35,117 nt of DNA from an uncultured Rhodobacterales bacterium (GTDB lineage: Bacteria > Pseudomonadota > Alphaproteobacteria > Puniceispirillales > GCA-002684695), in contig CAZCWO010000006.1 in NCBI GenBank assembly GCA_964502335.1, positions 1-35,117 on the forward strand. Reading direction: 5' to 3'. Below the pieces are notes generated by a model. It did no database searches. It was not told the origin of the DNA and saw nothing but the letters and a program-made list of their open reading frames with translations. Position 1 is the stretch's first letter, and each line of letters starts with the position of its first letter. Positions 1 to 25,126 of the stretch are shown here, in pieces. The position numbers were made by a program, and so were the translations under genes.

Positions 1-947
1 TTGATTTCTTCATGGTAATTGATAATGTCGTTACTTTTCGTCCAAACTTTTAGTTCATTTACTAATTCATAAAGGAATTCTATATCATCATCAACTTTAG
101 TCTCTTTAACTTTCTTGCCCAACTCCAAAGACTCTAATATATTATCATTTTCTAAATTCATTAAGATGTACTCATTGATTTTGACTTCTGCATGCTTAAT
201 AAATTTAAATAATTTATCTTTTTCTAATACTAGATCTTTCTCCCTTTTGGCTTTTCTCTGACCAATAAATAAAATAAAATCTTCGTCTTTAGAAACATAC
301 TCTAGAAGACTTTCATAATTGGTAATAAATTCTTGATTTGGATTATCAATGTTACTATTTTTTAATTTTAGGAAAAGTTCTCCTAATATAATTGGATCCA
401 AGTTATTAGTTTGTTTCATAAAGTCTTTAATATCACCAGTCAGTAAAGCACTTTCTTTTTTTATTGCATTGAAGCGATTAGAAATATTTGAATCTAATCC
501 AACAATAATTTCTTTTTCTTTGTTCAAACTAGCTTCTACGACAATTCCATTAGTTGCATTGCTTAAGTTGTTATTACTTGAAAATGCATATTCTGCATTT
601 TTAGTTATGATTGATCTGCAAGAGTTTTTGTCATCAAGAATAATGAGAGTTCCAGTATTATTGTTTTTGGTTTTTGAAATAATCATGTTAGCATGATAAC
701 CTTGCAAGTTATAAATGTATTCATAATCATTATATTTAGTAATTTGCTTTAATTTTTTATCATTTGAAGGGAGGTTAATTATGTATAAGTTTTCTTCTTT
801 TGATAAGATTTCTTTAAAAGAAATCTCTAAGTATGCTTGGCACTGGATTGAAGGATTAATTAAATAAAAGGTTTCAGCTTGCAATGAAATAGGTAAAAAT
901 ACTAATAAAGAAAAAAATTTTAACCATTTAAATAATTTAATAATCAT
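1..947 (-). CDS. Exported protein of unknown function, with its C-terminus beyond the window start. Its N-terminal ~100-aa two-Cys domain is paralogous to the N-terminus of the MORN-caspase protein.
   Basis: Absent from the supplied ORF track because it has no stop inside the window. ATG at 947..945 on the minus strand. I read every minus-strand codon from 947 down to 5..3 (315 codons) and found no stop. Translation begins MIIKLFKWLKFFSLLVFLPISLQA|ETFYLINPSIQCQAYLEISFKEILSKEENLYIINLPSNDKKLKQITKYNDYEYIYNLQGYHANMIISKTKNNNTGTLIILDDKNSCRSIITKNAEYA. This is a signal peptide followed by a domain that aligns without gaps to the caspase protein N-terminus. It starts 8 nt after the stop of 956..1762, so it is probably co-transcribed. 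The listed + ORF 349..696 is its antisense shadow. Confidence 0.8.
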   Translation of the reverse strand, partial: MIIKLFKWLKFFSLLVFLPISLQAETFYLINPSIQCQAYLEISFKEILSKEENLYIINLPSNDKKLKQITKYNDYEYIYNLQGYHANMIISKTKNNNTGTLIILDDKNSCRSIITKNAEYAFSSNNNLSNATNGIVVEASLNKEKEIIVGLDSNISNRFNAIKKESALLTGDIKDFMKQTNNLDPIILGELFLKLKNSNIDNPNQEFITNYESLLEYVSKDEDFILFIGQRKAKREKDLVLEKDKLFKFIKHAEVKINEYILMNLENDNILESLELGKKVKETKVDDDIEFLYELVNELKVWTKSNDIINYHEEI

Positions 948-955
948 TGAAATAT

Positions 956-1762
956 TTATCCACAACCATCACTGCTGGAAGAAGCAACCAATTCACCTTC
1001 TTCACCGTTTTCTGTTCTGGAGCATATTGTCCAACCTTTTGCAATATAGTCAGCTTCTAGCCTATCAAAGAAATCACTTAGACTTTCATAAACCTGCTCT
1101 TGCACTTGTTTCTCAATCTGCTCTTGCACTTGCTTCTCAACTTGTTCTTGCACTTGTTTCTCAACTTGTTTTTCTACTTTTTTATCAACAGTATCGCTGA
1201 CTTTTTCATTAATATTTTTTAAAACCTGCAAAGAAAGCTTTTCTTTTTTCTTTTTTCGCATTAATGCGACTACCTCATTTTCATCTAAATTAATTTTATC
1301 AGTGTTGATAGAAGAGGAAATAAAAATAATTGCATTTTCCTCAGATAAATTTAGTTGGTCTAGAAAAGAGTGATTAGCGCTTCCTATAATAAATTTTTGT
1401 AAATCATTTACGTTTGAAAAATGATTAAGTTTTGCAATTTTTTCTATATAATTGCTTCGTAGGTCTATGCCCGACATCCTTAACAATGGTGTACCTGGAA
1501 TAAAAAGTTCATTACCAAAGTAATTTTTTGGACTCTGGCCTCTGCCACTCGCCTTTGGCCAATCTTTTGATGGGTTTGAAAGTTGATTTTGAAATCTAAC
1601 GCCATAACTTTCTTTTTTTATGTTTCCATCTGCATCGATAACTGTCCCGTCAGATTTCCAAACAACTTGAGCAACAGATATTAAACTATAGAAAGACAAT
1701 TGCATTAAACAAATAGTTATAATTAATGAAACTTTCATGTTTTTTGAAATTCTACTAAACAT
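956..1762 (-). CDS. Exported coiled-coil protein with EKQVQEQV octad repeats, function unknown
   Basis: Long minus-strand ORF. The probable true start is the internal ATG at 1738 (MKVSLIITICLMQLSFYSLISVAQ|VVWK, a signal peptide). The C-terminal third is K/E/Q-rich (KKKKEKLS...VEKQVEKQVQEQVEKQVQEQIEKQVQEQV). It ends in a Cys-containing tail, WTICSRTENGEEGELVASSSSDGCG. I recognised no family by eye. Confidence 0.7.
   Translation of the reverse strand: MFSRISKNMKVSLIITICLMQLSFYSLISVAQVVWKSDGTVIDADGNIKKESYGVRFQNQLSNPSKDWPKASGRGQSPKNYFGNELFIPGTPLLRMSGIDLRSNYIEKIAKLNHFSNVNDLQKFIIGSANHSFLDQLNLSEENAIIFISSSINTDKINLDENEVVALMRKKKKEKLSLQVLKNINEKVSDTVDKKVEKQVEKQVQEQVEKQVQEQIEKQVQEQVYESLSDFFDRLEADYIAKGWTICSRTENGEEGELVASSSSDGCG
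1094..1177 (-). repeat. In-frame 24-bp tandem repeat, about 3.5 copies, inside CDS 956..1762
   Basis: Plus-strand units are ctgctcttgcacttgtttctcaat (1094..1117), ctgctcttgcacttgcttctcaac (1118..1141), ttgttcttgcacttgtttctcaac (1142..1165) and the partial ttgtttttctac (1166..1177). They encode the (V/I)EKQVQEQ octads. Confidence 0.9.
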
Positions 1763-1857
1763 ATATTATTATTTATTGTTTATTGTGTATTATAATTTAT
1801 CATTATAATTAAACACAATTTTTTTGATATTTATATTAAATTGTAAAATCTATTTAA

Positions 1858-4620
1858 TTGATAGTTATTAAAATGAATAATTTTTTGAAATTATTGATCT
1901 CATTAATATTATTAATTGCTCCTATTTCTTTGAATGCTCAAACATTTTATTTAATCAATCCCTCTGAAACATGCAAAGAGTACCTTGGAAGTGCATTTAA
2001 TAATTTTTTCAAAAAGAGAGATAACATCTATTCTATGGAAGTTTTGGAATCTAAAGAGGGGGTAAGCAAAATAACAAAATATAAGGATTTAGAATTTGTA
2101 TATACCATTCAAGGTAATGGGGCGCGCCTAATAATAACTAAAGAGAAAACTCAAAACACAGGCACACTATCTTTTCTTGATGAAGATAAACCTTGTAATT
2201 CACTTATAACATTAGATAAAACCTATGCTACTAATTTTATTAATTTAGATAACAAAATAGAAACTTCATTCGACCAATCTAACAACAAGAACCATTCAAA
2301 TTATAATTTTTCTCAATTGCCTCTATGTAAAGGTGAGTATAATTCTTCTATTTGGTCAAATTGCTTTGGTGAAATTAAAACTAAAAATGGAGATAAGTAT
2401 ATTGGTGAATGGAGAAATGGAAAATATTTTGGGACAGGAAGTTATTTCTTTAAAAATGGTGACGAATACTTTGGTGAGTGGAAAGATAATAAATTTGAAG
2501 GCATTGGAACTTATAAATTTAAAAATGGCAATAAATTTATAGGCCAACATAAATCAGGAAAATTTAATGGCTTTGGCACTTTTGTTTATAACAGTGGTGC
2601 AAGGGATGTAGGTGAGTGGAAAGAAGGAAAATTAAATGGTCAGGCTATTCAATATAATTTTGACGGTACCATAAAACTTCAAGGAATTTTTAAAGATGAT
2701 AAATTAACTAAATCAAGTATTATCACAGCAAAAAGTAAAATTCAAAAAAATTCAAATCTTCCAGTATGCTCTTCTAAGACTGCTATTTCAATCGATCAGC
2801 CAGTTGAATGGAATTGGGATAATTGTTTAGGGAAAATTCATATTTTGGATGGTAAATTTAAAGATTGGAAGTATGACGGAAATTTTAAAAATGGAAAATT
2901 ACATGGTTTTGGAAAAATTAGATATAAAGATGGAAGTAATTTTATAGGTGAGTTCCAAAAAGGAAAAAAACATGGCAAGGGGACTATGGTTTTTGGTTCA
3001 AAATCTAACAAAGCTGGGGATAAATATGTTGGTGAATATAGAGAAGGAAAAAAGGACGGGCAGGGTATATTTACATTTTCAGATGGAGAAAAATATGATG
3101 GTGAATGGAAAAATGATAAAAGAAATGGCATAGGAAAAAATGTTTGGGCAAATGGTAGTATGTATATAGGGGAATGGAAAAGTAATAAACAGAATGGATT
3201 TGGAACCTTTTCCTTTGCTAATGGAGATAGAGATGTTGGCCAATGGATTGACAATAAATTAAATGGTGATGCTGTTCAATATTATTCTGATGGAAGCATA
3301 TTTAGGCAAGGGGTTTTTAAGGATGACAAGTTTCTATATGATAAGAAAGTTCTAATTGAAAATGAAAGTATTAATCCAAACAAAGCTCTTAAAAATAAAG
3401 AGAATATAAATTGTGAAGATGGTTTTGAAAAAATTGGCGATAATTGCATCAGCAAAGCTTTATCTGATGAGTTGGTAGCAGCTTTAAACAAAGCTAAAGA
3501 ACTTGAAGAAGAACTTTCTAAGCTCAAAGTAGAGAATAAAAAGAAAAAACAAAAAATTAATTCTGACGATCAATTGCCAACTATCAGTTCGTTGAAATAT
3601 AACTATTCAGATTATAATGTTACCATTGAAGGTATTGTTTCTGATAATGTTGAAGTAGCAGAAGTTCTTATTAACAATGAAATAGTTTTCCTTGATAGTG
3701 ACGGAGCTTTTCAGGAAACGCTTTATATTCCAAGAAATGGTACAAAAATTAATATTATTGCATTTGATTTAAAGGGTAACAAATCTATAAAAACAATTCA
3801 TTTACAACGCAAAGAAACTGAAAAAAATATTGGTCCTTTTTTTGAGGCGCTTAATCCAACTGGAAAAATTGCTACAGTGAATAAAAATTCTTTAGCACTG
3901 ATTGTCGGTATATCTAAATATGAAAAAACTTCAGCTGAGGCAATTTATGCCGATAATGACGCTAAAATGTTTTATGACTATGCAAGGTTTAAACTTGGTA
4001 TACCAACATCAAACATAAAAGAATTGATTAATGAAAATGCGGAAGAAAGCGAAATACTTTTAGCTTTAAAAGATTGGATCGGACGAAACTCTCAAAAGGG
4101 TAAGAGTGATATTTTTATTTTTTTTGCGGGACATGGCATGTCATCGCATAACGGTGAAAATATGTATTTACTGCCTTATGACGGATCTCCAAGATTATTA
4201 GAAGATTCAGCTATTTCAAGGAATAGACTTTTTAATGAGGTTTCATCCTTTCAACCACGATCAGTCAGCGTATTTTTTGACACTTGTTTTTCTGGATCAG
4301 CTAGAGATAATGACACTCTTTTGTCATCAAGGCCAGTGTTAATTGTTCCTAAAGAAAAACCTATTCCTGAAAACTTTACATTGTTTTCTGCTGCTGCAGC
4401 TGATCAAGTTGCGAACCCTTTAAAAGAGGTTGAACATGGAATGTTTTCTTACTTTCTGATGAAAGGAATGGAGGGGAACGCTGACCAAAATAATGATAAC
4501 TTAATTACAACCGGAGAACTTCATTCATATGTTCAAAGTAACGTAATGAAGCATTCTTTAGGATCTCAAACGCCAGAATTGCATGGGGATCACAATAAAG
4601 TTCTTTTAAGAATTAATTAA
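1858..4620 (+). CDS. Secreted MORN-repeat / peptidase C14 (caspase-like, orthocaspase) multidomain protein
   Basis: 920-aa ORF. The likely start is ATG 1873 (MNNFLKLLISLILLIAPISLNAQ|TFY, a signal peptide) rather than TTG 1858. Domain order: two-Cys N-domain, two blocks of MORN-type repeats (pattern Y.GEWK.GK.NG.G.....G, 4 + 6 copies), a coiled-coil linker (ELEEELSKLKVENKKKKQK), a beta-rich spacer, then a C-terminal caspase fold. The catalytic dyad is in canonical contexts: IFIFFAGHG (His codon 4132..4134) and VFFDTCFSG (Cys codon 4285..4287). Confidence 0.9.
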   Translation: MIVIKMNNFLKLLISLILLIAPISLNAQTFYLINPSETCKEYLGSAFNNFFKKRDNIYSMEVLESKEGVSKITKYKDLEFVYTIQGNGARLIITKEKTQNTGTLSFLDEDKPCNSLITLDKTYATNFINLDNKIETSFDQSNNKNHSNYNFSQLPLCKGEYNSSIWSNCFGEIKTKNGDKYIGEWRNGKYFGTGSYFFKNGDEYFGEWKDNKFEGIGTYKFKNGNKFIGQHKSGKFNGFGTFVYNSGARDVGEWKEGKLNGQAIQYNFDGTIKLQGIFKDDKLTKSSIITAKSKIQKNSNLPVCSSKTAISIDQPVEWNWDNCLGKIHILDGKFKDWKYDGNFKNGKLHGFGKIRYKDGSNFIGEFQKGKKHGKGTMVFGSKSNKAGDKYVGEYREGKKDGQGIFTFSDGEKYDGEWKNDKRNGIGKNVWANGSMYIGEWKSNKQNGFGTFSFANGDRDVGQWIDNKLNGDAVQYYSDGSIFRQGVFKDDKFLYDKKVLIENESINPNKALKNKENINCEDGFEKIGDNCISKALSDELVAALNKAKELEEELSKLKVENKKKKQKINSDDQLPTISSLKYNYSDYNVTIEGIVSDNVEVAEVLINNEIVFLDSDGAFQETLYIPRNGTKINIIAFDLKGNKSIKTIHLQRKETEKNIGPFFEALNPTGKIATVNKNSLALIVGISKYEKTSAEAIYADNDAKMFYDYARFKLGIPTSNIKELINENAEESEILLALKDWIGRNSQKGKSDIFIFFAGHGMSSHNGENMYLLPYDGSPRLLEDSAISRNRLFNEVSSFQPRSVSVFFDTCFSGSARDNDTLLSSRPVLIVPKEKPIPENFTLFSAAAADQVANPLKEVEHGMFSYFLMKGMEGNADQNNDNLITTGELHSYVQSNVMKHSLGSQTPELHGDHNKVLLRIN
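2311..2706 (+). repeat. MORN module 1 (internal protein-level duplication, 4 MORN repeats)
   Basis: Opens with SQLPLCKGEYNSSIWSNCFGEIK, followed by YIGEWRNGKYFGTG / YFGEWKDNKFEGIG / FIGQHKSGKFNGFG / DVGEWKEGKLNGQA. Closes with IQYNFDGTIKLQGIFKDDKL. Confidence 0.8.
2752..3333 (+). repeat. MORN module 2 (internal protein-level duplication, 6 MORN repeats)
   Basis: Opens with SNLPVCSSKTAISIDQPVEWNWDNCLGKIH, followed by six MORN units. Closes with VQYYSDGSIFRQGVFKDDKF. The head (LP.C ... NC.G.I) and tail (.QY..DG.I..QG.FKDDK) match those of module 1. Confidence 0.8.
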
Positions 4621-5868
4621 CTTAGTTTTTATAAAATTAGAAACTTTAATTCCCAACATGTTATAGTGTTCATTTGCAGTTACATTCTTTGTGCTTAAAC
4701 GCTTTAATGCCTTCAGAGATTTATATAATCTAAGGTTATTATTTTCTTCTAATGACATAAGACCAGTTAAATAATAGTAATTTGCTGATGTCTTTATATT
4801 ATTTTTAATTTCATTTATTACTGCATAATTATAATTTGTCATAGAATGTTGGGGGTTTAACTTTATTGCTTTATCAAATGATGCAAAAGCTAATTTATTT
4901 TCTTGCTCTTTTAAATAGGATGATCCCAGTATAGAATATATTTCAGCGTCATTATATCCTTTTGCAATTGCACTTAATCCAAAATCAATAGAAGATTTAT
5001 AATTTTTTAATAAAAATTCTGACTTACTTGCAAAATAATAATTTTCTGGAACACTGGGATTGAGATTAATAGAAATTTTAGATTCGATCAAAGCTTGTTC
5101 ATATTGACCAGTTTCAATAAAGTTTTGAATTTTTAAATTATCTAAATAAATTGTAGAAAGTTTTTGTTGGTCTTTATTTAAAATTGCAAAAAATTCATTA
5201 TTGGCAACTATTTTTTGTTTGTTAGGAAGAGTGCTCATAACACGCCTTGAAACAGTATCAACCATTTGCAATACTGTTTCATCTTCTCTATTTGAAGAAG
5301 CTTCTAATATTCCTGTAACCAATGATATAGGTGACACTGGTATTGAGCCTTCGCTACTAATTGCTGAATGTTTTGCTGACCAAAGTACTTTTGAAAACTT
5401 GTCAGTCAATTCTAATTCAATCCCGACAGAAGTAAATGAGTATAAAACTAAATAATTATTAGTAAATGTAGTAATTTTCCCATTTATAATAGCGTCACAG
5501 TTTAATAATTCTAATAGTCGATCGTTTGAAATGTTTTGATTATTATCAAGGATGTAATCTGTCCTAGTTAAATTAATATACTCGTAATTTTTTGTACTCA
5601 ATAATCCAAATAAAGCATTTCTAATTAATTTAGATTTATTAAGATGTTCATAATCGTAGTTATTTGTATTGTCGGAAATCTTTCCAATTGCAATACAATT
5701 TACTTTATTTGGATTAAAGTTCTCATCCAAAGAAAACTCTACAATTTCTCTTGATGAAATTTGTTTATTATTGCTAAGCACGTCAACCTTTTTATAGATT
5801 GGTGTCGAGCATGAAGAAAAAAATAACAAAATAAATATTACTGAGATATAATTTAAATCTTTAGGCAT
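4606..5868 (-). CDS. Lipoprotein with an N-terminal small alpha/beta lipoprotein module (DUF799/GNA1162-like by eye) and C-terminal TPR repeats
   Basis: Signal peptide with a lipobox-like FSSC|S (MPKDLNYISVIFILLFFSSCSTP). The N-terminal ~200 aa resembles the small periplasmic lipoprotein modules of the DUF799/LpoB/TolB-N class (..CIAIGKISDNT...CDAIINGKITTF...VGIELELTD..SKVLWSAKHS..); this is unverified. The C-terminal half has TPR-like A/Y/L periodicity (YEQALIESKISINLNPSVPENYYFASKSEF..; AFASFDKAIKLNPQH). Its 3-prime end overlaps the convergent caspase gene by 15 nt. Confidence 0.7.
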   Translation of the reverse strand: MPKDLNYISVIFILLFFSSCSTPIYKKVDVLSNNKQISSREIVEFSLDENFNPNKVNCIAIGKISDNTNNYDYEHLNKSKLIRNALFGLLSTKNYEYINLTRTDYILDNNQNISNDRLLELLNCDAIINGKITTFTNNYLVLYSFTSVGIELELTDKFSKVLWSAKHSAISSEGSIPVSPISLVTGILEASSNREDETVLQMVDTVSRRVMSTLPNKQKIVANNEFFAILNKDQQKLSTIYLDNLKIQNFIETGQYEQALIESKISINLNPSVPENYYFASKSEFLLKNYKSSIDFGLSAIAKGYNDAEIYSILGSSYLKEQENKLAFASFDKAIKLNPQHSMTNYNYAVINEIKNNIKTSANYYYLTGLMSLEENNNLRLYKSLKALKRLSTKNVTANEHYNMLGIKVSNFIKTKLINS

Positions 5869-5909
5869 ACTAAAAGGCTTTAAAATTAATATTAAAGTTA
5901 TTTATTATT

Positions 5910-7523
5910 ATGATTTTATTTAGCTCATTAAATCAAGTAACGGTTAAAGTAATATACTTTTTTATTATTAATATTATTTTAATTAAAACCTCGTTCGCCT
6001 TAACAGATGAACAGTTTAATAGAGTTAATTCTTTAATTGAGCAACAAAATATTGAAAAATCTTTTGAGTTGTTGAAAACTTTTCAATCTAATGAAGAAGA
6101 ACTATCCTCAAGGTCCCTTTTATTGTTTGGAAAAATTTACCTTGAACTAGGGCAACCACTTAAAGCTATTAATTATTTTGAGTCTGTTTATTATTCTTCA
6201 ATTGAATTAAACGATTACGCATACGTAGGAATGGCTAATTCTGAATTTATGCTAGGCAACTTATCAAAATCAAAAGCTTTTGCTTTAAAGGCTTTAAATA
6301 TTAATCCTAATTTAACTGATGCAATAATTATTTTGGCTCAAATTTTAGCTGATGAAAACTTAATTGAAAAATCTGATAAATTATTTTTGTCAACTTTGGA
6401 CTCTAGTCCTAGCAGTTCCTACGCAGGAAGAAAATTTGTTGAAACTCTTCTGAGAAGAAATCAAATTGACAAAGCGGAAACTATTCTTAAGCAGACAATA
6501 ATTAATAACAGTATTGATGCTCCATCATTGGAATTGTTTTCTGATATATATTGGTTAAGAGGAGAGCTGAAAACTGCAATAAAATTCAAACAACAAGCAA
6601 AGGAAAAATATTTAGAAGTTGGTAATAAGATAAAAGCTAGAAAAATCAATGACTGGTTGGCGTTCCAAGTTAATACAAATAAAACAATTTCAGAGATATA
6701 TACACAAGAATTAATCTCAAAAAAGGTGGTCGGTAATTTAGCAATTATCAATTCAGATAAAGTTGAACCCAATAAGCAGTTATATCAAAATAAGCAAAAG
6801 ACTAACGTGACTGATAGGATTGCATTTGAACCAAAAATTACACCAGAAGAAATCATAATTAACAATAGTAAACCAGTTTTTACTGGCAGTGGAGCCATTA
6901 TAAATGGTGGAAAATGGATTTTAACAAATAAGCATGTAGTTAATAATTTAAACTATATAATTGTTAGAAATGGATTGGGTGAAATCAGAAATGTAAAAGA
7001 AATTAGAGTTGCAGAAGATGATGATTTAGCAATTTTGATTCTATCAAAGCCCTATTCTTCAGATTACTCATTAAGTATTAATGATTTTAAAAAAGGTAAA
7101 ACTGGTTCAAGTATATATGTTATTGGCTATCCCATCGCGTCTCTATTTGGAAGTTTTCATCCTTCGATAACACAAGGGATCATTAGTAATCCATTAGGAT
7201 TTGATGAAAATAATAATGAATTTCAAATTACAGCAAAAATTAATCCAGGAAATAGTGGCGGTCCAATTTTTAATAAATTTGGGAAAATTGTTGGTATTGT
7301 TACTGGTAAATTAGATAGTCAAAAAATATTAAAAAATGAAGGGTTTTATCCAGAAGATATTAATTTTGGAATTCAACCTGATGCAATCCTTTCTTTTTTA
7401 AATGTAAATAATGATGATAGAATAAAATTGTTGTCAGATATTTCCTATGATTATGAATATAACATTGAAGATTTATATAAGTACATGAGGTCAGCCATTG
7501 TTTTTATTGTTGCTCAGAGATAG
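5910..7523 (+). CDS. Exported TPR-repeat / trypsin-like serine protease
   Basis: It has a hydrophobic N-terminal signal or anchor (VKVIYFFIINIILIKTSFA|LTD). The N-terminal ~250 aa are TPR-like (LLLFGKIYLELGQPLKAINYFES; AFALKALNINPNLTDA). The C-terminal ~200 aa carry a chymotrypsin-fold triad in typical contexts: WILTNKHVV (His codon 6933..6935), EDDDLAILIL (Asp) and INPGNSGGPIFN (Ser codon 7254..7256). Confidence 0.85.
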   Translation: MILFSSLNQVTVKVIYFFIINIILIKTSFALTDEQFNRVNSLIEQQNIEKSFELLKTFQSNEEELSSRSLLLFGKIYLELGQPLKAINYFESVYYSSIELNDYAYVGMANSEFMLGNLSKSKAFALKALNINPNLTDAIIILAQILADENLIEKSDKLFLSTLDSSPSSSYAGRKFVETLLRRNQIDKAETILKQTIINNSIDAPSLELFSDIYWLRGELKTAIKFKQQAKEKYLEVGNKIKARKINDWLAFQVNTNKTISEIYTQELISKKVVGNLAIINSDKVEPNKQLYQNKQKTNVTDRIAFEPKITPEEIIINNSKPVFTGSGAIINGGKWILTNKHVVNNLNYIIVRNGLGEIRNVKEIRVAEDDDLAILILSKPYSSDYSLSINDFKKGKTGSSIYVIGYPIASLFGSFHPSITQGIISNPLGFDENNNEFQITAKINPGNSGGPIFNKFGKIVGIVTGKLDSQKILKNEGFYPEDINFGIQPDAILSFLNVNNDDRIKLLSDISYDYEYNIEDLYKYMRSAIVFIVAQR

Positions 7524-8304
7524 TGTTTTATTATTGATATTTCTAATTGTCATCCCAGTGAAAGCTGAAGTTTTTTCAAGTAATGGAACTTATTTTTTTC
7601 CTACAAATATAAGTGAGGAAGATTGTTACTTCAAAGCACAAAGTAACGCGATAAAAGCAGTTATGGAAAAAGCGGGCCTGTCTTATGTTGTAAGCTCAGA
7701 AAACCTTAATTGCTCTGAAATTAAAGATAAAAATACTTGTGAGTATTTTCAAGATAGTCAGATATATTATGAAGGAGGTTTCATAACTTCAAAAAAGTTT
7801 TCAAATAATCGAATATTATTTGAAGGCTCTATTAATAGAAAATGTTCGGTTCATTTAGTGGCTGATATAAAAAAGTTTAAATCTAAACATGATCCCAATT
7901 ATATTCTGGAAGTAAATTTGAACAATTATATATTTAGGGATGGTGATGAAATTTTAATTAACGGTGAAACAAACTTACCTTCAAATATTTATTTATTTAA
8001 TTTTGTTAATGATTCTGAAGAGTATCAACTGATAATACCAAATAAGTTTGAAAAATTAACTAACTTGAATGGTCCCTTTAATATTCCTTCGAACCAAAAA
8101 TATAAATTGGTAGCAAAATTTCCTATTGATCATAATAAAGACATAATTCAAGAGCAATTTATGTTGTTGATAACTAAAACAAATAAAGAAGAGTTCAAAG
8201 TTATTGATATTGAGTCCTCAGTATCTTTATTAAGTAGATTAAATGATTTTGGCAGGAAAAATTGGAAAAAAATTCGCTTAAGTTATTTTATTATAAAGGA
8301 GTAA
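7498..8304 (+). CDS. Exported protein with a DUF4384-like C-terminal domain
   Basis: The start codon is uncertain (TTG 7498, 7507 or 7510) and the ORF overlaps the upstream stop. Signal peptide LLLIFLIVIPVKA|EVF. The C-terminal region YIFRDGDEILINGETNLPSNIYLFNFVNDSEEYQLIIPNKFEKL...KYKLVAKFP...FMLLITK matches the DUF4384 pattern as I remember it (Y..GD.i.i......YLYvf..d..g....l.PN). That domain is frequently fused or adjacent to bacterial caspase domains. Confidence 0.7.
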   Translation: MFLLLLRDSVLLLIFLIVIPVKAEVFSSNGTYFFPTNISEEDCYFKAQSNAIKAVMEKAGLSYVVSSENLNCSEIKDKNTCEYFQDSQIYYEGGFITSKKFSNNRILFEGSINRKCSVHLVADIKKFKSKHDPNYILEVNLNNYIFRDGDEILINGETNLPSNIYLFNFVNDSEEYQLIIPNKFEKLTNLNGPFNIPSNQKYKLVAKFPIDHNKDIIQEQFMLLITKTNKEEFKVIDIESSVSLLSRLNDFGRKNWKKIRLSYFIIKE

Positions 8305-8307
8305 ATA

Positions 8308-8943
8308 ATGTTTAGATTTAGTTTATTATTAATATTTACCTTAGTTTTTTTATCTTCTTGTACTACAACTGACAATTCTAGTAACGCTAATTCAGAGGGA
8401 ACCAATGCATCAGTAATTTTTAATAATAACAATCTTAAAGAGGATATGAGCAAAACAGAAGAAGCTTCTATAACTGTTTTAATGGTTCCTGATTGGTGCA
8501 AAAAAATGCCAAAATCTGATATTTTTATATATGCATGTGGTATTGGCAATTCATCAAATTTAAATATGTCTAATTCTAGAGCTTTGTTGGATGGAAAGGC
8601 AAAACTTGCAAACCAGATAAATAGTCAGATTACATCACGGATGGCAGATTTAATTGAAGATTTAGGAGAAAACAATGACCAAGTAACACAAGCGAGTGAG
8701 CGTGTTATTAAAAGCGTAACCAAAGAAACACAGGTTGCTGGTTTTAAAGAAGTGCAATCTGAATTTCAAAACATAGCAAGTAAATTCCAGACCTACATAT
8801 TGCTTGAATATCCAATAGGTGAAGCCAATCAATTATTATATAACAAGATTAAAAATGATAATATATTAAGTAATCAGGAATCTATTGATTCTGCACTTGA
8901 AGAGTTGGAAGCTGAAATTAATAAAAAAAGTTCTATTAATTAA
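8308..8943 (+). CDS. LPP20/FlgP-like lipoprotein
   Basis: Begins 3 nt after the previous stop. Lipobox LSSC|T (MFRFSLLLIFTLVFLSSCTTT). The core IYACGIGNSSNLNMSNSRALLDGKAKLANQINSQITS...ERVIKSVTKETQVAGFKEV resembles the LPP20 lipoprotein family pattern by eye. Confidence 0.65.
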   Translation: MFRFSLLLIFTLVFLSSCTTTDNSSNANSEGTNASVIFNNNNLKEDMSKTEEASITVLMVPDWCKKMPKSDIFIYACGIGNSSNLNMSNSRALLDGKAKLANQINSQITSRMADLIEDLGENNDQVTQASERVIKSVTKETQVAGFKEVQSEFQNIASKFQTYILLEYPIGEANQLLYNKIKNDNILSNQESIDSALEELEAEINKKSSIN

Positions 8944-11318: not shown

Positions 11319-13961
11319 TCAAAAATTTAATGATATGTCTTGGTGCACAGATCTACATCTAGATATTCTTGGAACCAAGAAAGAAGGCAACCTCTCCTGA
11401 CCTCTTAATCCTATATTCTTCGAAGTTTCTTCTTGAAATTTTCTCAATAATGGCAAAACAGATTTTACTGCTAATTCTCTCCAAAATATTTCTTCATTAA
11501 GTTTTTCATCAGCCTTTTGAAGGTAATTATTTGCTTTTTCAAGGTTTTCTTTTTTAAATTCTTTTCTTGCCTTATTAAGGAGGGATTTAACTGGGGTCCC
11601 TCCGGGAACCGAACTTATTTTTTTTGAGGTCGTTTTTATCGCTTCTTGTTTGGCTTGATTATCAAGGTCTTTAATGGAAATTTTTAGTTTATTAAAATCA
11701 TTCTTAAAGTTTATGAAACCACTCCCTGAGGAAATGATTTCAATTGTTTCTTCAATTCCATCATAAGTGTCGTCCATAGCTCTACGATACTTTCGTTGAT
11801 TATTACTTAATGCCTTCAATTTATTTTGATATTCTTTAGAAACTTTTTCCCATTCTGAAGGAATTAACTTTGATAATTCCTCTTTTTCATATAAGGATAA
11901 TTTAATTTCTTCATTTATGTCATCTTTTTTATTTTGTTCGTCAGTAATTTGAAGTTCACGTTTTAAGCGTTTTAAATGGCCATCAATTTTTTTAGTATCC
12001 CTCTGGATTGTTCTAACTTTAAAATGAATATCTTGATAAGCTACAGTGGCTTCATCAAGTATTAATTTAGAAGAATTTACATTGTCGAGTTTTTCAAAAA
12101 CTGTATTTGCACTTTCTATTGATTCAGAAATTTTTGATATTAGGTTCTTTGGCAAGATACTAATTTCTAAACTAGAAAGGTTATTAATTGAGGATTGGAT
12201 GGTTTGCTTATTATTTAATAATGTTTCGGAAAGATATTCTTCAACACAATATTCTAATTTAGGGTTCATTGGAGGAGGAGCATTAAATGATGATAAATAA
12301 AAACGGTTTGGTAAGTAATTAACTAATGGTGGAAATGTACCTACAATTACAAGGGCTATTAACTGAAGTATTATAAAAGGGATAACGCCTTTATACATAG
12401 AAATTGTTGAAATAGCTTTTGATGCAACTCCCCTTAAATAGAATAAAGCAAAACCAAAGGGAGGTGTGAGGAAGCTTGTTTGAATATTTACGCCGATCAT
12501 GACGCCCAACCAAACAGCGGTGATGTTTGCACTTGGATCAGCAAGAAGAATTGGTGCTATAATAGGAACTACTACTACAGCGATTTCTATAAAATCTAAG
12601 AAAAAACCAAGTATAAATATAACTGCCATTACAACGATAAATTGTGACCAAAATCCACCAGGTAAACTTTGCAAAAAATCTTTTACATATTCCTCGCCAC
12701 CAAAACCTCTAAATGCTGCTGTTAGCATTGCCGCACCAAGAAGGATTATAAATACCATCGATGTCGTTTTCGCAGTTTCTATCATGACCTCGTTTAATGT
12801 GTTGTCAATTTTATGGGTTCTCCATATTGACCAAACAATAGAAATTACTAATGAAAAAGATGCCATCATTGCAAAAAACACTGGCATATAATTTTTTGTT
12901 ACAGCTAAATTTTTGATGTTTAAGTCATACGAATTGATAAACAAGAAAATGATTAACACTGAAATAAAACCCAACATAGCAGGGTATGCGGCGCCTTTAT
13001 TATTTTCTGTTAGTTTGTAACCAGCCATTAATGTAGCACCAATTGCACCAATTGCACCGGCTTGATTAACTGTTGCAATTCCCATAATAATTGACCCTAA
13101 GACTAGAAAAATAAGAACCAGAGGTGGCACTAAGGAGAACATGACCTTAGAAAAAAATTCTCTTGTAAAGCCAGTGGGGTTAGGTACTGCAGGAGCCATT
13201 GACGGTTTGATTAACGCTGTAATAAATATGTAAGCAAAATAAACCAGTACTAAAACAATGCCAGGCAGGAAAGCCCCTAAAAACATATCGCCGGCAGAGG
13301 TTGAAGTGACGTCAAAAGCAGATGGCATAGTAAACTCACCTGTTGCATCTTTATATAGAGACTGTCTCATGGCTGAAGCTTGATCTGAGGCTGAACCAAG
13401 CTGATCAGCTAAAATAATAAGAACAATTGACGGGGGTATGATTTGTCCCAAGGTTCCGGATGCTGCAATTGTCCCTGTAGCTAATGATGGAGAATACTTA
13501 TTTCGCATCATTGAAGGGAGGGAAATAAGCCCCATGGCTACAACTGTAGCTCCTACTATACCAGTAGTTGCTGCTAAAAGAGCACCAACAAAAACTACTG
13601 AGATACCTAACCCACCGGGAACAGGGCCAAATAAACCTGCCATGGTCATCAGTAAATCTTCTGCAATTCGTGATCTTTGCAGCATAATCCCCATAAATAT
13701 AAACAATGGAATTGCTATTAAAGTGTCACGTTCAAAGTCGTAGTAAATTGCACGAAAGTTCATGACACCTGCCGAAAGCCATTCGACAGGACCATCGTTA
13801 TAAAAGAAAATTTTTGTATCATCAAATATAAGCCATCCAAGAATAGCTGCAAGACCAATAGTGAATATGGCAGATCCAGGTAAAGCAAAAGCCACAGGGT
13901 AACCATAACCAAGTGCAACCATCATTATAATGAATAAAAGTAGTAAGAAGTAGATTTCCAT
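11319..13961 (-). CDS. dctM: TRAP transporter large permease (DctM-type) with a ~320-aa C-terminal soluble coiled-coil extension
   Basis: 880-aa ORF. Residues 1 to ~555 are polytopic membrane protein with DctM-like blocks (GIMLQRSRIAEDL, LGQIIPPSIVLIILADQ, TSFLTPPFGFALFYLRG). From NAPPPMNPKLEY (Asn560 codon 12284..12282) to the end it is hydrophilic and K/E/N-rich with heptad character. It lies directly downstream of dctQ (5-nt gap). Confidence 0.85.
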   Translation of the reverse strand: MEIYFLLLLFIIMMVALGYGYPVAFALPGSAIFTIGLAAILGWLIFDDTKIFFYNDGPVEWLSAGVMNFRAIYYDFERDTLIAIPLFIFMGIMLQRSRIAEDLLMTMAGLFGPVPGGLGISVVFVGALLAATTGIVGATVVAMGLISLPSMMRNKYSPSLATGTIAASGTLGQIIPPSIVLIILADQLGSASDQASAMRQSLYKDATGEFTMPSAFDVTSTSAGDMFLGAFLPGIVLVLVYFAYIFITALIKPSMAPAVPNPTGFTREFFSKVMFSLVPPLVLIFLVLGSIIMGIATVNQAGAIGAIGATLMAGYKLTENNKGAAYPAMLGFISVLIIFLFINSYDLNIKNLAVTKNYMPVFFAMMASFSLVISIVWSIWRTHKIDNTLNEVMIETAKTTSMVFIILLGAAMLTAAFRGFGGEEYVKDFLQSLPGGFWSQFIVVMAVIFILGFFLDFIEIAVVVVPIIAPILLADPSANITAVWLGVMIGVNIQTSFLTPPFGFALFYLRGVASKAISTISMYKGVIPFIILQLIALVIVGTFPPLVNYLPNRFYLSSFNAPPPMNPKLEYCVEEYLSETLLNNKQTIQSSINNLSSLEISILPKNLISKISESIESANTVFEKLDNVNSSKLILDEATVAYQDIHFKVRTIQRDTKKIDGHLKRLKRELQITDEQNKKDDINEEIKLSLYEKEELSKLIPSEWEKVSKEYQNKLKALSNNQRKYRRAMDDTYDGIEETIEIISSGSGFINFKNDFNKLKISIKDLDNQAKQEAIKTTSKKISSVPGGTPVKSLLNKARKEFKKENLEKANNYLQKADEKLNEEIFWRELAVKSVLPLLRKFQEETSKNIGLRGQERLPSFLVPRISRCRSVHQDISLNF

Positions 13962-13966
13962 GTCGA

Positions 13967-14980
13967 CTATGAAAACCTTTCTTGTTCAGAAGCATGATCT
14001 GGTTGCTCTGAATAATTTTCTAAATTATTTATATTGGATATGATGAAATTCGCAAACTGAAACAACATTGACAGAGCAAATATGACCAAGAAACCAGACA
14101 TTAAATACTTAACATACATGCCAAAACCTTGTTGAGTAACTTCAAAATTTAGTAATGCAAGATTAAATGGTGAAGATTCATTCCAAAGACCACGAATAAG
14201 TATTACCCAGCAAAGTGGAATGCCAAAAATTAATGAACCATAAATATTTGTATGTGCTTTTCTTTTTTCTGAAAAAGCAGCGTAAATAATATCAACTCTT
14301 ACATGACCGTCATGAACGAGCGTATATGCACTAGAGAACAGAAAAAGAGCAGCATACCAAAATCTGACTAAATCGCCCATAAAAGCTTGTTCATAAGAGA
14401 AAATGAACCTTGCTATAACTATTAAAAGCTCACCTAAGACGATCATTAATGCCAACCATATAAAATCAATACGTCTTCGTAAAAGTGCTATAATTATTCC
14501 AACTGCAATTAATGGAAAGTGAACGTACATCCCTCTAAATGAAGGTTTACCAAGTGATAGAGCTAAATCCTCACCTACAATAATCGGAAGAAAATTTTCA
14601 ATCCGAACAAAAGAAATAAAAGCGTCAACTAATCCTACAAAAAGCACCGACCAAAATGCAGCAGAAACAATTATTTCTGATATATTGTTTGGCATTTTTT
14701 CATCACGATGATTTGTTTTATTATAAATGATCCTAATTGGATAAATTATAGCTGCTAAATATAAAATTGTTTGGAAAACTCCGAGTAATTTAATTGTAAA
14801 GCTAGTATTTGTATGAATTTCTCCTAAATTAATGCCTATCATTGACAATGTTCCAAAGGCACCAGGCAAGTCAAATATGTATGTGAGAAAGTTATTTAGA
14901 ACAAATGCTCCACCTAAAAAAGCACTTGAAAGTGCTATAAAGTGCAAAAAATCCATTAATGAAACAGACTTTAAGTTCAT
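13967..14980 (-). CDS. dctQ: TRAP transporter small permease (DctQ-type) with an N-terminal extension of about four extra TM helices
   Basis: 337 aa. The canonical DctQ core starts around RRRIDFIWLALMIVLGELLIVIARFIF...YTLVHDGHVRVDIIY. The ~165 residues before it contain four hydrophobic helices (FLHFIALSSAFLGGAFVLNNFL, LLGVFQTILYLAAIIYPI, IIVSAAFWSVLFVGLVDAFI, VHFPLIAVGIIIALL). Confidence 0.85.
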   Translation of the reverse strand: MNLKSVSLMDFLHFIALSSAFLGGAFVLNNFLTYIFDLPGAFGTLSMIGINLGEIHTNTSFTIKLLGVFQTILYLAAIIYPIRIIYNKTNHRDEKMPNNISEIIVSAAFWSVLFVGLVDAFISFVRIENFLPIIVGEDLALSLGKPSFRGMYVHFPLIAVGIIIALLRRRIDFIWLALMIVLGELLIVIARFIFSYEQAFMGDLVRFWYAALFLFSSAYTLVHDGHVRVDIIYAAFSEKRKAHTNIYGSLIFGIPLCWVILIRGLWNESSPFNLALLNFEVTQQGFGMYVKYLMSGFLVIFALSMLFQFANFIISNINNLENYSEQPDHASEQERFS

Positions 14981-24760: not shown

Positions 24761-25126
24761 ATGAAAAAAATTTTATTAATTATTACTATACTAATTTCAA
24801 GTCAATCATATGCGTATATCAATGAAACCTATGACTGTAAAATGAAAAACTTTATTGGTATTGATAAAGATGGATTGCCTAAAAAATGGAGAGAACAAAA
24901 ATTTTCTTTTAAGTGGAAAGACGATTTTACCATTCAGTTTAGCAAAGGGGGATATTTTGATAACCTTACATCTGAAAGAATAGGATGGTTTAGCGCAAAT
25001 AAAGACAGCTTTAATATTCATCATGATATTTATATAATGAATTACGCAAATAGGTCTCTTTGGTTTTCTCATGTAAACCCAGAAAGCGGCATTCTAAATA
25101 TACATGCAAACTGTGAAAAAAGATAA
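24761..25126 (+). CDS. Small exported protein, function unknown
   Basis: Starts 1 nt after the GST stop. Signal peptide MKKILLIITILISSQSYA|YINE. Two Cys residues (CKMKNF..., ..HANCEKR). No family recognised. Confidence 0.6.
   Translation: MKKILLIITILISSQSYAYINETYDCKMKNFIGIDKDGLPKKWREQKFSFKWKDDFTIQFSKGGYFDNLTSERIGWFSANKDSFNIHHDIYIMNYANRSLWFSHVNPESGILNIHANCEKR

What the first reader, a model, noticed from the sequence alone, without database searches (positions are those of the whole stretch)
1..8943. Seven-gene block of exclusively exported proteins around a secreted MORN-caspase: candidate envelope proteolytic system
All seven consecutive genes (1..947, 956..1762, 1858..4620, 4606..5868, 5910..7523, 7498..8304, 8308..8943) begin with a signal peptide or a lipobox. 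The set contains two different endopeptidase folds, each with intact catalytic residues. One is peptidase C14 with the His/Cys dyad, and the other is a trypsin-like His/Asp/Ser triad fused to TPRs. The rest of the set is a DUF4384-like protein, two lipoproteins (one DUF799-like with TPRs, one LPP20-like), a repeat-bearing coiled-coil protein, and a paralogue of the caspase N-domain. DUF4384 is known for co-occurring with bacterial caspase domains, which supports a functional link rather than chance adjacency. Bacterial caspase homologues are mostly discussed as cytoplasmic, in conflict systems or gasdermin activation. Here everything is predicted to act in the periplasm or at the outer membrane. 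No NTPase, gasdermin-like or nucleic-acid-related gene is present. A ~9-kb investment in such a module is surprising for an otherwise streamlined genome. I cannot name a described system with this composition.
Basis: partly seen in the sequence, partly recalled or inferred. Interest (0 to 1): 0.8.

Follow-up and report, generated by a model that had tools for sequence, protein, structure and literature searches.

The report
Exported caspase and serine-protease envelope gene module
A marine bacterium encodes a gene cluster in which every product is exported from the cytoplasm: a caspase-type protease, a trypsin-type protease, two outer-membrane lipoproteins and a DUF4384 protein. The same set recurs in many other marine bacteria, so it is a real and so far undescribed cell-envelope protease system whose job is still unknown.

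Summary
All seven ORFs sit at the stated coordinates and all start with a signal peptide or a lipobox. Only 2 of the 22 other window genes encode soluble exported proteins.

Domain calls:
- MORN + Peptidase_C14 is confirmed, with the His/Cys dyad and acidic S1 residues intact.
- TPR + HtrA-like S1 protease is confirmed, with the His/Asp/Ser triad intact and no PDZ domain.
- GNA1162-like + TPR lipoprotein is confirmed.
- DUF4384 and LPP20 are supported only through family members, and for LPP20 also through fold.

Synteny test:
- It passes, but it redraws the unit. The conserved core is g4-g5-g6-g7, nearly always beside one to four or more exported caspases.
- This holds in metagenome and single-cell loci of 27-46% GC.
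- g1 and g2 are lineage-specific accessories. g2-like genes always precede a protein carrying the shared N-domain.
- One genome has the core without a nearby caspase. Some loci lack g5.

The host looks like SAR116 (Puniceispirillaceae), not Pelagibacterales.

No paper in the searchable library describes this cluster. MORN-metacaspase architectures and trypsin-pseudocaspase-DUF4384 fusions have been noted before.

Best model: an outer-membrane-tethered periplasmic protease complex, analogous to NlpI-Prc, with caspases as effectors. An envelope defence role is a live rival.

The parts
1..947 (-). g1 (5' part only; the gene runs off the window). Exported protein: signal peptide, ~100-aa N-domain paralogous to the g3 N-domain, helical region. 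In L042 it continues into a coiled coil and MORN repeats. No caspase domain in the L007 orthologue. Lineage-specific accessory.
956..1762 (-). g2. Exported 268-aa protein with a conserved N-terminal ~140-aa region, (EKQVQEQV)n coiled-coil repeats and a Cys-containing C-terminus. Lies 8 nt upstream of g1. g2-like genes always directly precede a gene for a protein with the g1/g3 N-domain.
1858..4620 (+). g3. Exported MORN-Ig-caspase (ATG 1873 is an alternative start). N-domain aa 28-135, MORN blocks aa 181-270 and 339-480, coiled coil, Ig-like domain aa ~587-651, Peptidase_C14 aa 679-910.
3892..4587 (+). Peptidase_C14 domain of g3. Catalytic His759 (AGHG) and Cys810 (DTCFSG). S1 acidic residues D701 and D808. 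EF-hand-like loop DQNNDNLITTGE at aa 876-887.
4606..5868 (-). g4. Lipoprotein (lipobox FSSC, Cys20) with a GNA1162-like/DUF799 domain (aa 110-206) and C-terminal TPRs (aa ~247-395). Core component.
5910..7523 (+). g5. Exported TPR (aa ~42-250) + HtrA-like S1 serine protease (aa ~325-480; H342, D372, S449). No PDZ domain. Frequent core component. Overlaps the g6 start by 26 nt, an overlap conserved in L007, L011 and L041.
7498..8304 (+). g6. Exported ~270-aa protein: N-domain with four conserved Cys, then DUF4384 (aa 146-207). Member of a distinct family with 380 representatives at 50% identity. Core component.
8308..8943 (+). g7. Lipoprotein (lipobox LSSC, Cys18) with an Lpp20-type fold and conserved PDWC...YACG cysteines. 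Core component, almost always immediately downstream of g6.

Best explanation
What it is. This is a conserved, fully extracytoplasmic proteolytic module of marine proteobacteria. It has a four-gene core:
- g4, an outer-membrane lipoprotein with a GNA1162-like domain and TPRs;
- g5, a TPR-fused HtrA-type serine protease without PDZ;
- g6, a disulfide-bonded DUF4384 protein;
- g7, an Lpp20-fold lipoprotein.
The core is joined by one to several exported C14 caspase homologues, here one MORN-Ig-caspase.

How it most likely works (inferred, not shown).
1. The two lipoproteins tether a complex under the outer membrane.
2. The TPR surfaces of g4 and g5 dock partners, as the TPR lipoproteins NlpI and LbcA dock the periplasmic proteases Prc and CtpA.
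3. The DUF4384 protein acts as a protease-binding regulator or substrate.
4. The caspases are the variable effector proteases. They are predicted to cleave after Arg/Lys and to be Ca2+-dependent. They are either held latent and released by g5 cleavage or are targeted through their MORN and Ig domains.

Shown here: gene content, export signals, intact active sites, and recurrent synteny. Inferred: physical complex, order of action, and substrates.
For: - Domains and active sites.
- S1 aspartates D701 and D808 align with MALT1 D365 and D462. That these two MALT1 residues form the Arg-specific S1 pocket is from my own knowledge.
- EF-hand-like loop conserved in proteobacterial homologues.
- Export signals: 7 of 7 in the block, and conserved in homologues. 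97 of 117 MORN-protease homologues carry an N-terminal signal.
- Conserved Cys pairs in g6 and g7.
- g7 has the Lpp20 fold: 5ok8 prob 1.0, 4kzs E 4.6e-3.
- Synteny of g4/g5/g6/g7 plus caspases at 25-37% identity in L002, L004 and L005, and across 33 metagenome loci. g6 is adjacent to g7 in 25 assessable loci and within two genes in 3 more.
- The 26-nt g5/g6 overlap and 4-nt g6/g7 gap are conserved.
- Trypsin-pseudocaspase-DUF4384 fusions exist in Alphaproteobacteria (PMC6426788). DUF4384 is 'often fused to protease domains' and occurs as the C-terminal domain of the Craspase substrate Csx30 (bioRxiv 10.1101/2022.08.17.504292).
- g4 gives a weak NlpI-like TPR hit.
Against: - No interaction, localisation or activity data exist. 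Signal peptides were judged with a home-made heuristic only.
- g5 is absent from some loci (L032-L035, L038), so a serine-protease-to-caspase cascade cannot be obligatory.
- L041 has the core without a caspase within 10 kb, and L043 has MORN-caspases without the core.
- Prc and CtpA are S41 proteases, not S1, so the analogy is functional only.
- Outer-membrane sorting is inferred from the E. coli +2 rule.
- The g6 structure prediction failed (pLDDT 44).
Confidence: 0.45

Rival explanations
1. Envelope-level conflict system against phage, predatory bacteria or protist grazers. The core senses envelope damage or invasion in the periplasm and unleashes caspases. The caspases either destroy the cell's own envelope (abortive-infection-like) or attack the aggressor's proteins or membranes through the MORN repeats.
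For: - Caspase copy number and N-terminal domains vary between loci: 1 to 4 or more, with MORN, PDZ or the N-domain.
- The module is patchy (L041, L043).
- It neighbours an AEP-primase island (L004) and an integrase (L006).
- It neighbours STAND/NACHT NTPases in two independent variants (L032, L034).
- DUF4384 is also fused to a KAP NTPase (P0356).
- Bacterial caspase homologues are typical of conflict systems (PMC3417536).
Against: - PADLOC finds no known defence architecture, only generic caspase and protease models.
- In this lineage the block has a stable position among metabolic genes, with flanks shared with L011 and L042.
- No relatives of g6 or g7 were found in viral contigs.
- Divergence of block proteins (48-66%) is only modestly above a flanking amidase (70%).
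- The adjacent NTPases are cytoplasmic and may be mere island neighbours.
Confidence: 0.25
2. Surface or periplasmic nutrient-scavenging proteases. The caspase, gingipain-like with Arg/Lys specificity, and the serine protease degrade environmental proteins to feed peptide and amino-acid transporters. The lipoproteins serve as anchors.
For: - Everything is exported.
- Clan CD proteases such as gingipains are surface nutritional proteases (established knowledge).
- An extracellular protein-degradation role for aquatic metacaspases has been speculated (PMC4933709).
- The neighbourhood is metabolic and transport-related: TRAP transporter, amidase, M32 carboxypeptidase.
Against: - No outer-membrane translocation route is encoded in the module.
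- Elaborate TPR, DUF4384 and Lpp20 partners, translationally coupled, are not needed for bulk digestion.
- Multiple paralogous caspases with interaction domains suggest specific targets.
Confidence: 0.12
3. A dedicated sorting, maturation or anchoring apparatus for large exported cargo (MORN proteins, caspases, FG-GAP proteins). g5 would be the processing peptidase. The shared N-domain together with the g2 partner would be the recognition tag.
For: - Compared with L041 (core only), L007 has blocks of exported 'cargo' genes inserted on both sides of the same core: FG-GAP 966 aa, g2-like + N-domain-caspase, g2-like + N-domain-MORN 963 aa, and an 810-aa protein.
- g2-like genes always precede N-domain proteins.
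- GNA1162 relatives belong to csgG clusters thought to assist an unidentified transport machinery (bioRxiv 10.1101/2021.05.19.444899).
Against: - No CsgG-like or other channel protein appears in any locus.
- The N-domain and g2 are confined to close relatives, whereas distant loci keep the core with caspases that lack them.
Confidence: 0.12
4. Chance adjacency of unrelated exported genes with no common function.
For: The genes lie on both strands in four transcription units.
Against: The same families co-occur, in changed order and orientation, at 25-37% identity and across 27-46% GC. Seven of seven exported proteins is very unlikely by chance given the window background.
Confidence: 0.03

Closest known systems
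NlpI-Prc (E. coli) and LbcA-CtpA (P. aeruginosa) lipoprotein-adaptor/periplasmic-protease pairs
   Same: An outer-membrane TPR lipoprotein is encoded or acts with a periplasmic serine protease, and TPRs serve as docking surfaces. g4 gives a weak NlpI-type TPR hit.
   Different: Prc and CtpA are S41 tail-specific proteases, while g5 is an S1/HtrA-type protease with its own TPRs. Those pairs have no caspase, Lpp20-like or DUF4384 partner. Interaction is untested here.
HtrA/DegP/DegQ/DegS periplasmic proteases (S1C)
   Same: The catalytic domain aligns to DegS with the His-Asp-Ser triad intact, and the protein is exported.
   Different: There is no PDZ domain. An N-terminal TPR array takes its place. 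NCBIfam scores are far below the equivalog cut-offs, for example 77 against 416 bits.
Bacterial orthocaspases/metacaspases (Peptidase C14), including the MORN|metacaspase architecture seen in Baltic metagenomes
   Same: C14 fold, His/Cys dyad and acidic S1 residues. The MORN-metacaspase architecture and likely signal peptides have been reported in surveys (PMC3501461, PMC4933709).
   Different: Those surveys did not describe the conserved partner genes (GNA1162-like/TPR lipoprotein, TPR-protease, DUF4384 protein, Lpp20-like lipoprotein). No exported member has been characterised experimentally in the literature I could search.
Alphaproteobacterial trypsin - pseudo-orthocaspase (QC) - DUF4384 fusion proteins
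   Same: The same three domain families are functionally linked (PMC6426788). This amounts to a Rosetta-stone fusion of g5, g3 and g6 types.
   Different: The fusion proteins carry a Gln in place of the catalytic His. Here the three are separate proteins, the caspase dyad is intact, and lipoproteins are added.
Helicobacter pylori lpp20 operon (HP1454/HP1456/HP1457) and FlgP-type Lpp20 lipoproteins
   Same: The g7 model matches HP1456 and HP1454. It is a lipoprotein co-encoded with exported partners.
   Different: The H. pylori operon contains no proteases. Sequence similarity is marginal. The function of Lpp20 is itself unknown.
csgG-GNA1162 (DUF799) clusters
   Same: g4 carries a GNA1162-like domain above the Pfam cut-off and a lipobox.
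   Different: No CsgG or DUF4810 partner is present in any locus examined. g4 has an added TPR domain.
Gingipains (C25) of Porphyromonas
   Same: Exported clan-CD cysteine proteases with Arg/Lys specificity and Ig-like accessory domains.
   Different: They belong to a different family (C25, not C14), are secreted by T9SS with a C-terminal domain signal, and have a different partner set.

Membership tests
Peptidase C14 (caspase/metacaspase/orthocaspase) | Pfam PF00656 match above the gathering score | tested here: met
   64.6 bits against a cut-off of 21.4
Peptidase C14 (caspase/metacaspase/orthocaspase) | Catalytic His-Cys dyad | tested here: met
   H759 and C810 are invariant in 20 homologues and align to MALT1 H415 and C464
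Peptidase C14 (caspase/metacaspase/orthocaspase) | Acidic S1 pocket (Arg/Lys specificity of meta-, para- and orthocaspases) | tested here: met
   D701 and D808 are conserved and align with MALT1 D365 and D462. The pocket assignment comes from published MALT1 and metacaspase structures (my own knowledge).
Peptidase C14 (caspase/metacaspase/orthocaspase) | Proteolytic activity and autoprocessing | not testable with these tools
   Needs enzymology
HtrA/DegP family (S1C) | Trypsin-fold domain with His-Asp-Ser triad | tested here: met
   Trypsin_2 75.4 bits. H342, D372 and S449 align to DegS
HtrA/DegP family (S1C) | One or two C-terminal PDZ domains | tested here: not met
   No PDZ hit at E<=0.1, and only ~55 residues follow the protease domain. 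NCBIfam scores are far below the cut-offs.
LPP20 lipoprotein family (PF02169) | Profile match | tested here: inconclusive
   g7 itself has no hit at E<=0.1, but 19 of 25 aligned family members hit LPP20, best 3.2e-6
LPP20 lipoprotein family (PF02169) | Lpp20 fold and lipobox | tested here: met
   The AF2 core has pLDDT >90. Foldseek gives 5ok8 prob 1.0 with TM(target) 0.68, and 4kzs E 4.6e-3. Lipobox LSSC.
GNA1162-like / DUF799 (PF05643) | Profile match above the gathering score, plus lipobox | tested here: met
   27.7 bits against 25.9. Lipobox FSSC at Cys20.
GNA1162-like / DUF799 (PF05643) | Membership of a csgG-type cluster | tested here: not met
   No CsgG family hit in the window or in the Pfam lists of related loci
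DUF4384 (PF14326) | Profile match | tested here: inconclusive
   g6 scores 20.2 bits, below the cut-off of 27. 29 of 41 family members match, best 3e-11.
NlpI-Prc / LbcA-CtpA type adaptor-protease system | TPR outer-membrane lipoprotein partnered with an S41 C-terminal processing protease | tested here: not met
   The TPR lipoprotein is present, but the protease is S1, not S41. Binding is not testable here.
Known anti-phage defence systems (PADLOC-DB v2) | Match of the gene set to a catalogued system | tested here: not met
   Only generic caspase, protease and TPR models hit. g1, g4, g6 and g7 have no hits.

The most novel reading that the evidence does not exclude
This would be the first extracytoplasmic protease cascade in bacteria. 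Periplasmic sensors (DUF4384 and TPR proteins tethered under the outer membrane) would detect envelope breach by phage, predators or grazers. They would trigger an HtrA-like protease that activates Ca2+-dependent exported caspases, which then dismantle envelope or attacker proteins. That would be a bacterial counterpart of the extracellular zymogen cascades of animal immunity, and it would place caspase-type immunity outside the cytoplasm.
Probability: 0.12. Interest if true: 0.9.

Novelty: new variant of a known kind. Interest (0 to 1): 0.62.

Why it matters
Bacterial caspase homologues are studied almost entirely as cytoplasmic death or defence effectors. Here an intact C14 protease is consistently exported and genetically tied to a second protease and to outer-membrane lipoproteins, across many abundant marine lineages.

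This gives a defined, testable gene set of four core genes plus caspases. It can be used to ask what caspase-fold enzymes do in the bacterial envelope. It can also give first functional contexts to three orphan families: DUF4384, GNA1162-like/DUF799 and Lpp20. If the module controls envelope integrity, or resistance to phage or grazers, in SAR116-type bacterioplankton, it bears on mortality and carbon flow in the surface ocean.

Tried and rejected
- BLAST hinted that g7 resembles the caspase domain. Profile-profile comparison gave probability 0.4%, so this was rejected as compositional.
- g6 and g7 are not detectably related.
- The g6 AF2 model was poor (pLDDT 44), and its Foldseek hits were all non-significant.
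- g1 and g2 have no Pfam, NCBIfam or PDB sequence relatives.
- The single-sequence PDB search with the caspase domain found nothing. A 13-sequence profile was needed.
- PADLOC returned only generic models.
- There are no tRNA or Rfam elements in the window.
- Promoter and terminator scans equal the shuffle expectation in this AT-rich DNA.
- The genome-collection scan with the g7 family found only one species representative, L007. Its pattern-based sensitivity is limited, so taxonomic breadth is under-sampled.
- Viral-contig scans for g6 and g7 relatives were negative.
- Cluster look-ups gave almost no organism names.
- The 'Pelagibacterales' attribution is not supported. The only taxonomic labels recovered are SAR116 and Candidatus Puniceispirillaceae.

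Full report
**Observation**

The transcription layout is as follows:
- g2 to g1 on the minus strand, with an 8-nt gap.
- g3 divergent from g2.
- g4 convergent with g3, with a 15-nt overlap.
- g5-g6-g7 on the plus strand, with a 26-nt overlap between g5 and g6 and a 4-nt gap between g6 and g7.

g1 is cut by the window edge. A near-identical metagenome contig (L042) extends it to at least 487 aa and shows the N-domain followed by a helical region, an EEAERK coiled coil and MORN repeats. The window contains no tRNA or Rfam element. Its GC content is about 29%.

**Export**

No SignalP was available, so I scored N-termini with a hydrophobicity and lipobox script.
- All seven block proteins have an uncharged hydrophobic stretch within the first 25 residues, followed by a small-residue cleavage motif. 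g4 has the lipobox FSSC and g7 has LSSC.
- Among the other 22 window genes, only a 121-aa protein and the Tat-type DctP are soluble exported proteins.
- The signals are conserved in homologues from distant loci: g2 7/7, caspases 24/25, g5 14/14, g6 21/23, g7 31/34. The misses are mostly threshold or start-codon artefacts.
- Conserved cysteine pairs in g6, g7 and the N-domain fit an oxidising compartment.
- Of 117 full-length MORN-caspase or MORN-trypsin homologues, 97 carry such a signal.

**Domains**

Pfam and NCBIfam confirm the following:
- MORN repeats and Peptidase_C14 in g3, plus a weak Ig-like (Glucodextran_B/Big_6) region.
- A GNA1162-like domain just above the cut-off, plus TPRs, in g4. 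The TPRs are also seen against PDB TPR proteins.
- TPRs plus a Trypsin_2/HtrA-like domain in g5, with no PDZ.

The g6 DUF4384 hit is sub-threshold. A profile of the g6 family finds 380 representatives at 50% identity among 1.84 billion proteins. Almost all are 250-290 aa and align end to end, and 29 of 41 sampled members hit DUF4384.

g7 has no Pfam hit of its own. However, 19 of 25 family members hit LPP20. Its AF2 model (core pLDDT >90) finds H. pylori HP1454, Lpp20/HP1456 and Tip-alpha as top PDB matches.

g1 and g2 match nothing. The g1 and g3 N-domains are 46% identical.

**Active sites**

- In a 20-sequence alignment of caspase domains, the AGHG His and the D-x-C-x-S-G Cys are invariant.
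- A 13-sequence profile aligns them to MALT1 H415 and C464. It aligns two conserved aspartates (D701, D808) to the MALT1 S1 residues D365 and D462, which predicts Arg/Lys specificity.
- A canonical EF-hand-type loop (D-x-N-x-D-x-x-I-T-x-x-E, aa 876-887) is conserved in the proteobacterial homologues. It suggests Ca2+ dependence, which would suit seawater or the periplasm. This is inference.
- The g5 residues H342, D372 and S449 align to the DegS triad.

**Comparative genomics**

Neighbourhoods of caspase homologues show the same families together:
- L001 (81% identity) keeps g2-g3-g4-g5-g6-g7.
- L002 (35%) has caspase, g6-like, g4-like, g7-like, g5-like and MORN-caspase.
- L005 and L006 have g6, g4, g7, a 150-aa gene, g5 and three caspases.
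- L004 has at least four caspases around g7-like, g6-like and g5-like genes.

BLAST confirms homology at 25-37% identity.

Scans with the g7 family returned one single-cell genome (L007) and 33 metagenome loci. I annotated these with HMMs built locally.
- g6 is immediately upstream of g7 in 25 assessable loci and two genes away in three more.
- g5 precedes g6 in most loci.
- g4 and caspases are adjacent wherever there is room.
- Module loci span 27-46% GC.

There are exceptions:
- L032-L035 and L038 lack g5.
- L041 has g4-g5-g6-g7 with no caspase within 10 kb.
- L043 has two MORN-Ig-caspases with no core nearby.
- A Bacteroidota-type MORN-caspase (L003) stands alone.

The unit is therefore a four-gene core plus variable caspases, not the seven genes.

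**Accessories**

g2-like genes always directly precede a gene for a protein carrying the g1/g3 N-domain. This is seen in the window, L001, L007 (twice), L011, L014, L017 and L042.

L007 can be compared with L041, because both are bounded by a TPR protein and a DUF192 gene. L007 shows blocks of exported genes inserted on both sides of the same core: an FG-GAP protein, g2 with an N-domain-caspase, g2 with an N-domain-MORN protein, and others.

**Context and taxon**

The rest of the window is ordinary metabolism and transport: amidase, dehydrogenase, TRAP transporter, aminotransferase, M32 carboxypeptidase, acyl-CoA dehydrogenase and others. L011 and L042 share the right flank, so the block is chromosomally stable in this lineage.

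The only taxonomic labels recovered are 'SAR116 cluster' for L007 and 'Candidatus Puniceispirillaceae' for a >=90% identical DctP. Neither points to Pelagibacterales.

In other lineages the module abuts:
- an AEP-primase island (L004);
- an integrase (L006);
- cytoplasmic STAND/NACHT NTPases (L032, L034).

No relatives of g6 or g7 were found in viral contigs. PADLOC recognises no catalogued defence system.

**Literature**

- Surveys already noted that about 15% of prokaryotic metacaspases have a probable signal peptide or transmembrane helix, and that multi-metacaspase operons exist in Alphaproteobacteria (PMC3501461).
- MORN|metacaspase architectures occur in Baltic metagenomes (PMC4933709).
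- Alphaproteobacteria encode trypsin-pseudo-orthocaspase-DUF4384 fusion proteins (PMC6426788).
- DUF4384 is 'often fused to protease domains' and forms the C-terminal domain of some Csx30 substrates of the caspase-like Csx29 (bioRxiv 10.1101/2022.08.17.504292).
- GNA1162 is a TolB-like lipoprotein of unknown role found in csgG clusters (bioRxiv 10.1101/2021.05.19.444899).
- Eight full-text searches found no description of this gene set.

**Mechanism**

The best-supported reading is an outer-membrane-tethered periplasmic protease assembly.
- Lipoproteins g4 and g7 act as anchors.
- The TPRs of g4 and g5 act as docking surfaces, analogous to NlpI-Prc and LbcA-CtpA.
- g6 acts as a protease-associated regulator or substrate.
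- The caspases act as exchangeable effectors.

All steps beyond gene content, export signals, active sites and synteny are inferred.

A defence or conflict role is the main rival. It is favoured by copy-number variation, patchiness and island neighbours. It is weakened by the stable metabolic context here and by the lack of any catalogued architecture. Nutrient scavenging and a cargo-sorting apparatus are less likely but not excluded. Chance adjacency is excluded.

**Verdict**

The parts belong to known families, and exported MORN-metacaspases had been seen in surveys. The conserved partnership with a TPR-HtrA-like protease, a DUF4384 protein and two lipoproteins appears undescribed, and its function is open.

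Noticed in passing
window 17532-19304 (-); L041 2611-6274; L011 167-2176: An adenylate/guanylate cyclase + TPR protein lies 8.6 kb from the block. Two paralogous cyclase-TPR genes sit immediately upstream of g4 in L041. In L011 a cNMP-binding + HlyD-like protein flanks g2. This may be a cyclic-nucleotide link or merely lineage synteny.
   Followed up: partly
window 11319-13961 (-) and 13967-14980 (-): The TRAP transporter DctM is 880 aa, with a long hydrophilic, coiled-coil-like C-terminal extension of roughly 300 aa. The DctQ is 337 aa with the DctQ domain only at residues 186-313. Both are unusually long for their families.
   Followed up: no
L032 6588-10796; L034 5966-10903; L033 13119-14996: In module variants that lack the TPR-protease, cytoplasmic STAND NTPases and a DUF4116 protein lie directly beside the module. 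The NTPases are NPHP3_N/AAA_16 + TPR_12 and DUF4062-NACHT-APAF1_C.
   Followed up: partly
L004 1483-9683; L006 8986-9207; L044 8272-9090: A run of small ORFs with an AEP-TOTE/DUF5906 primase flanks the L004 caspase cluster. Phage-type integrases flank L006 and the lone MORN-trypsin gene in L044. These suggest that some versions sit on mobile islands.
   Followed up: no
window 4483-4518 (g3 aa 876-887): A canonical EF-hand-type calcium-binding loop (DQNNDNLITTGE) lies inside the caspase domain. It is conserved in proteobacterial homologues and deleted in the Bacteroidota-type ones.
   Followed up: partly
protein P0356 (metagenome representative): A KAP-family P-loop NTPase is fused to a C-terminal DUF4384 domain. 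This adds to the kinase, protease and Csx30 contexts of this orphan domain.
   Followed up: no
L004 15143-16405 (-): Here the g7-like Lpp20 domain is the C-terminal third of a 420-aa protein. Its N-terminal ~250 residues are highly charged coiled-coil repeats, there is no separate g4 gene, and the N-terminus has no lipobox.
   Followed up: no
window 24761-25126 (+): A small 121-aa protein with a clear signal peptide and no Pfam match. It is the only other Sec-type soluble exported protein in the window.
   Followed up: no
one search hit list (e.g. P0005, P0014, P0052, P0070): MORN repeats are fused to trypsin-like proteases about as often as to caspases among the homologues, mostly with signal peptides. 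MORN therefore looks like a general targeting module for exported proteases in marine bacteria.
   Followed up: partly
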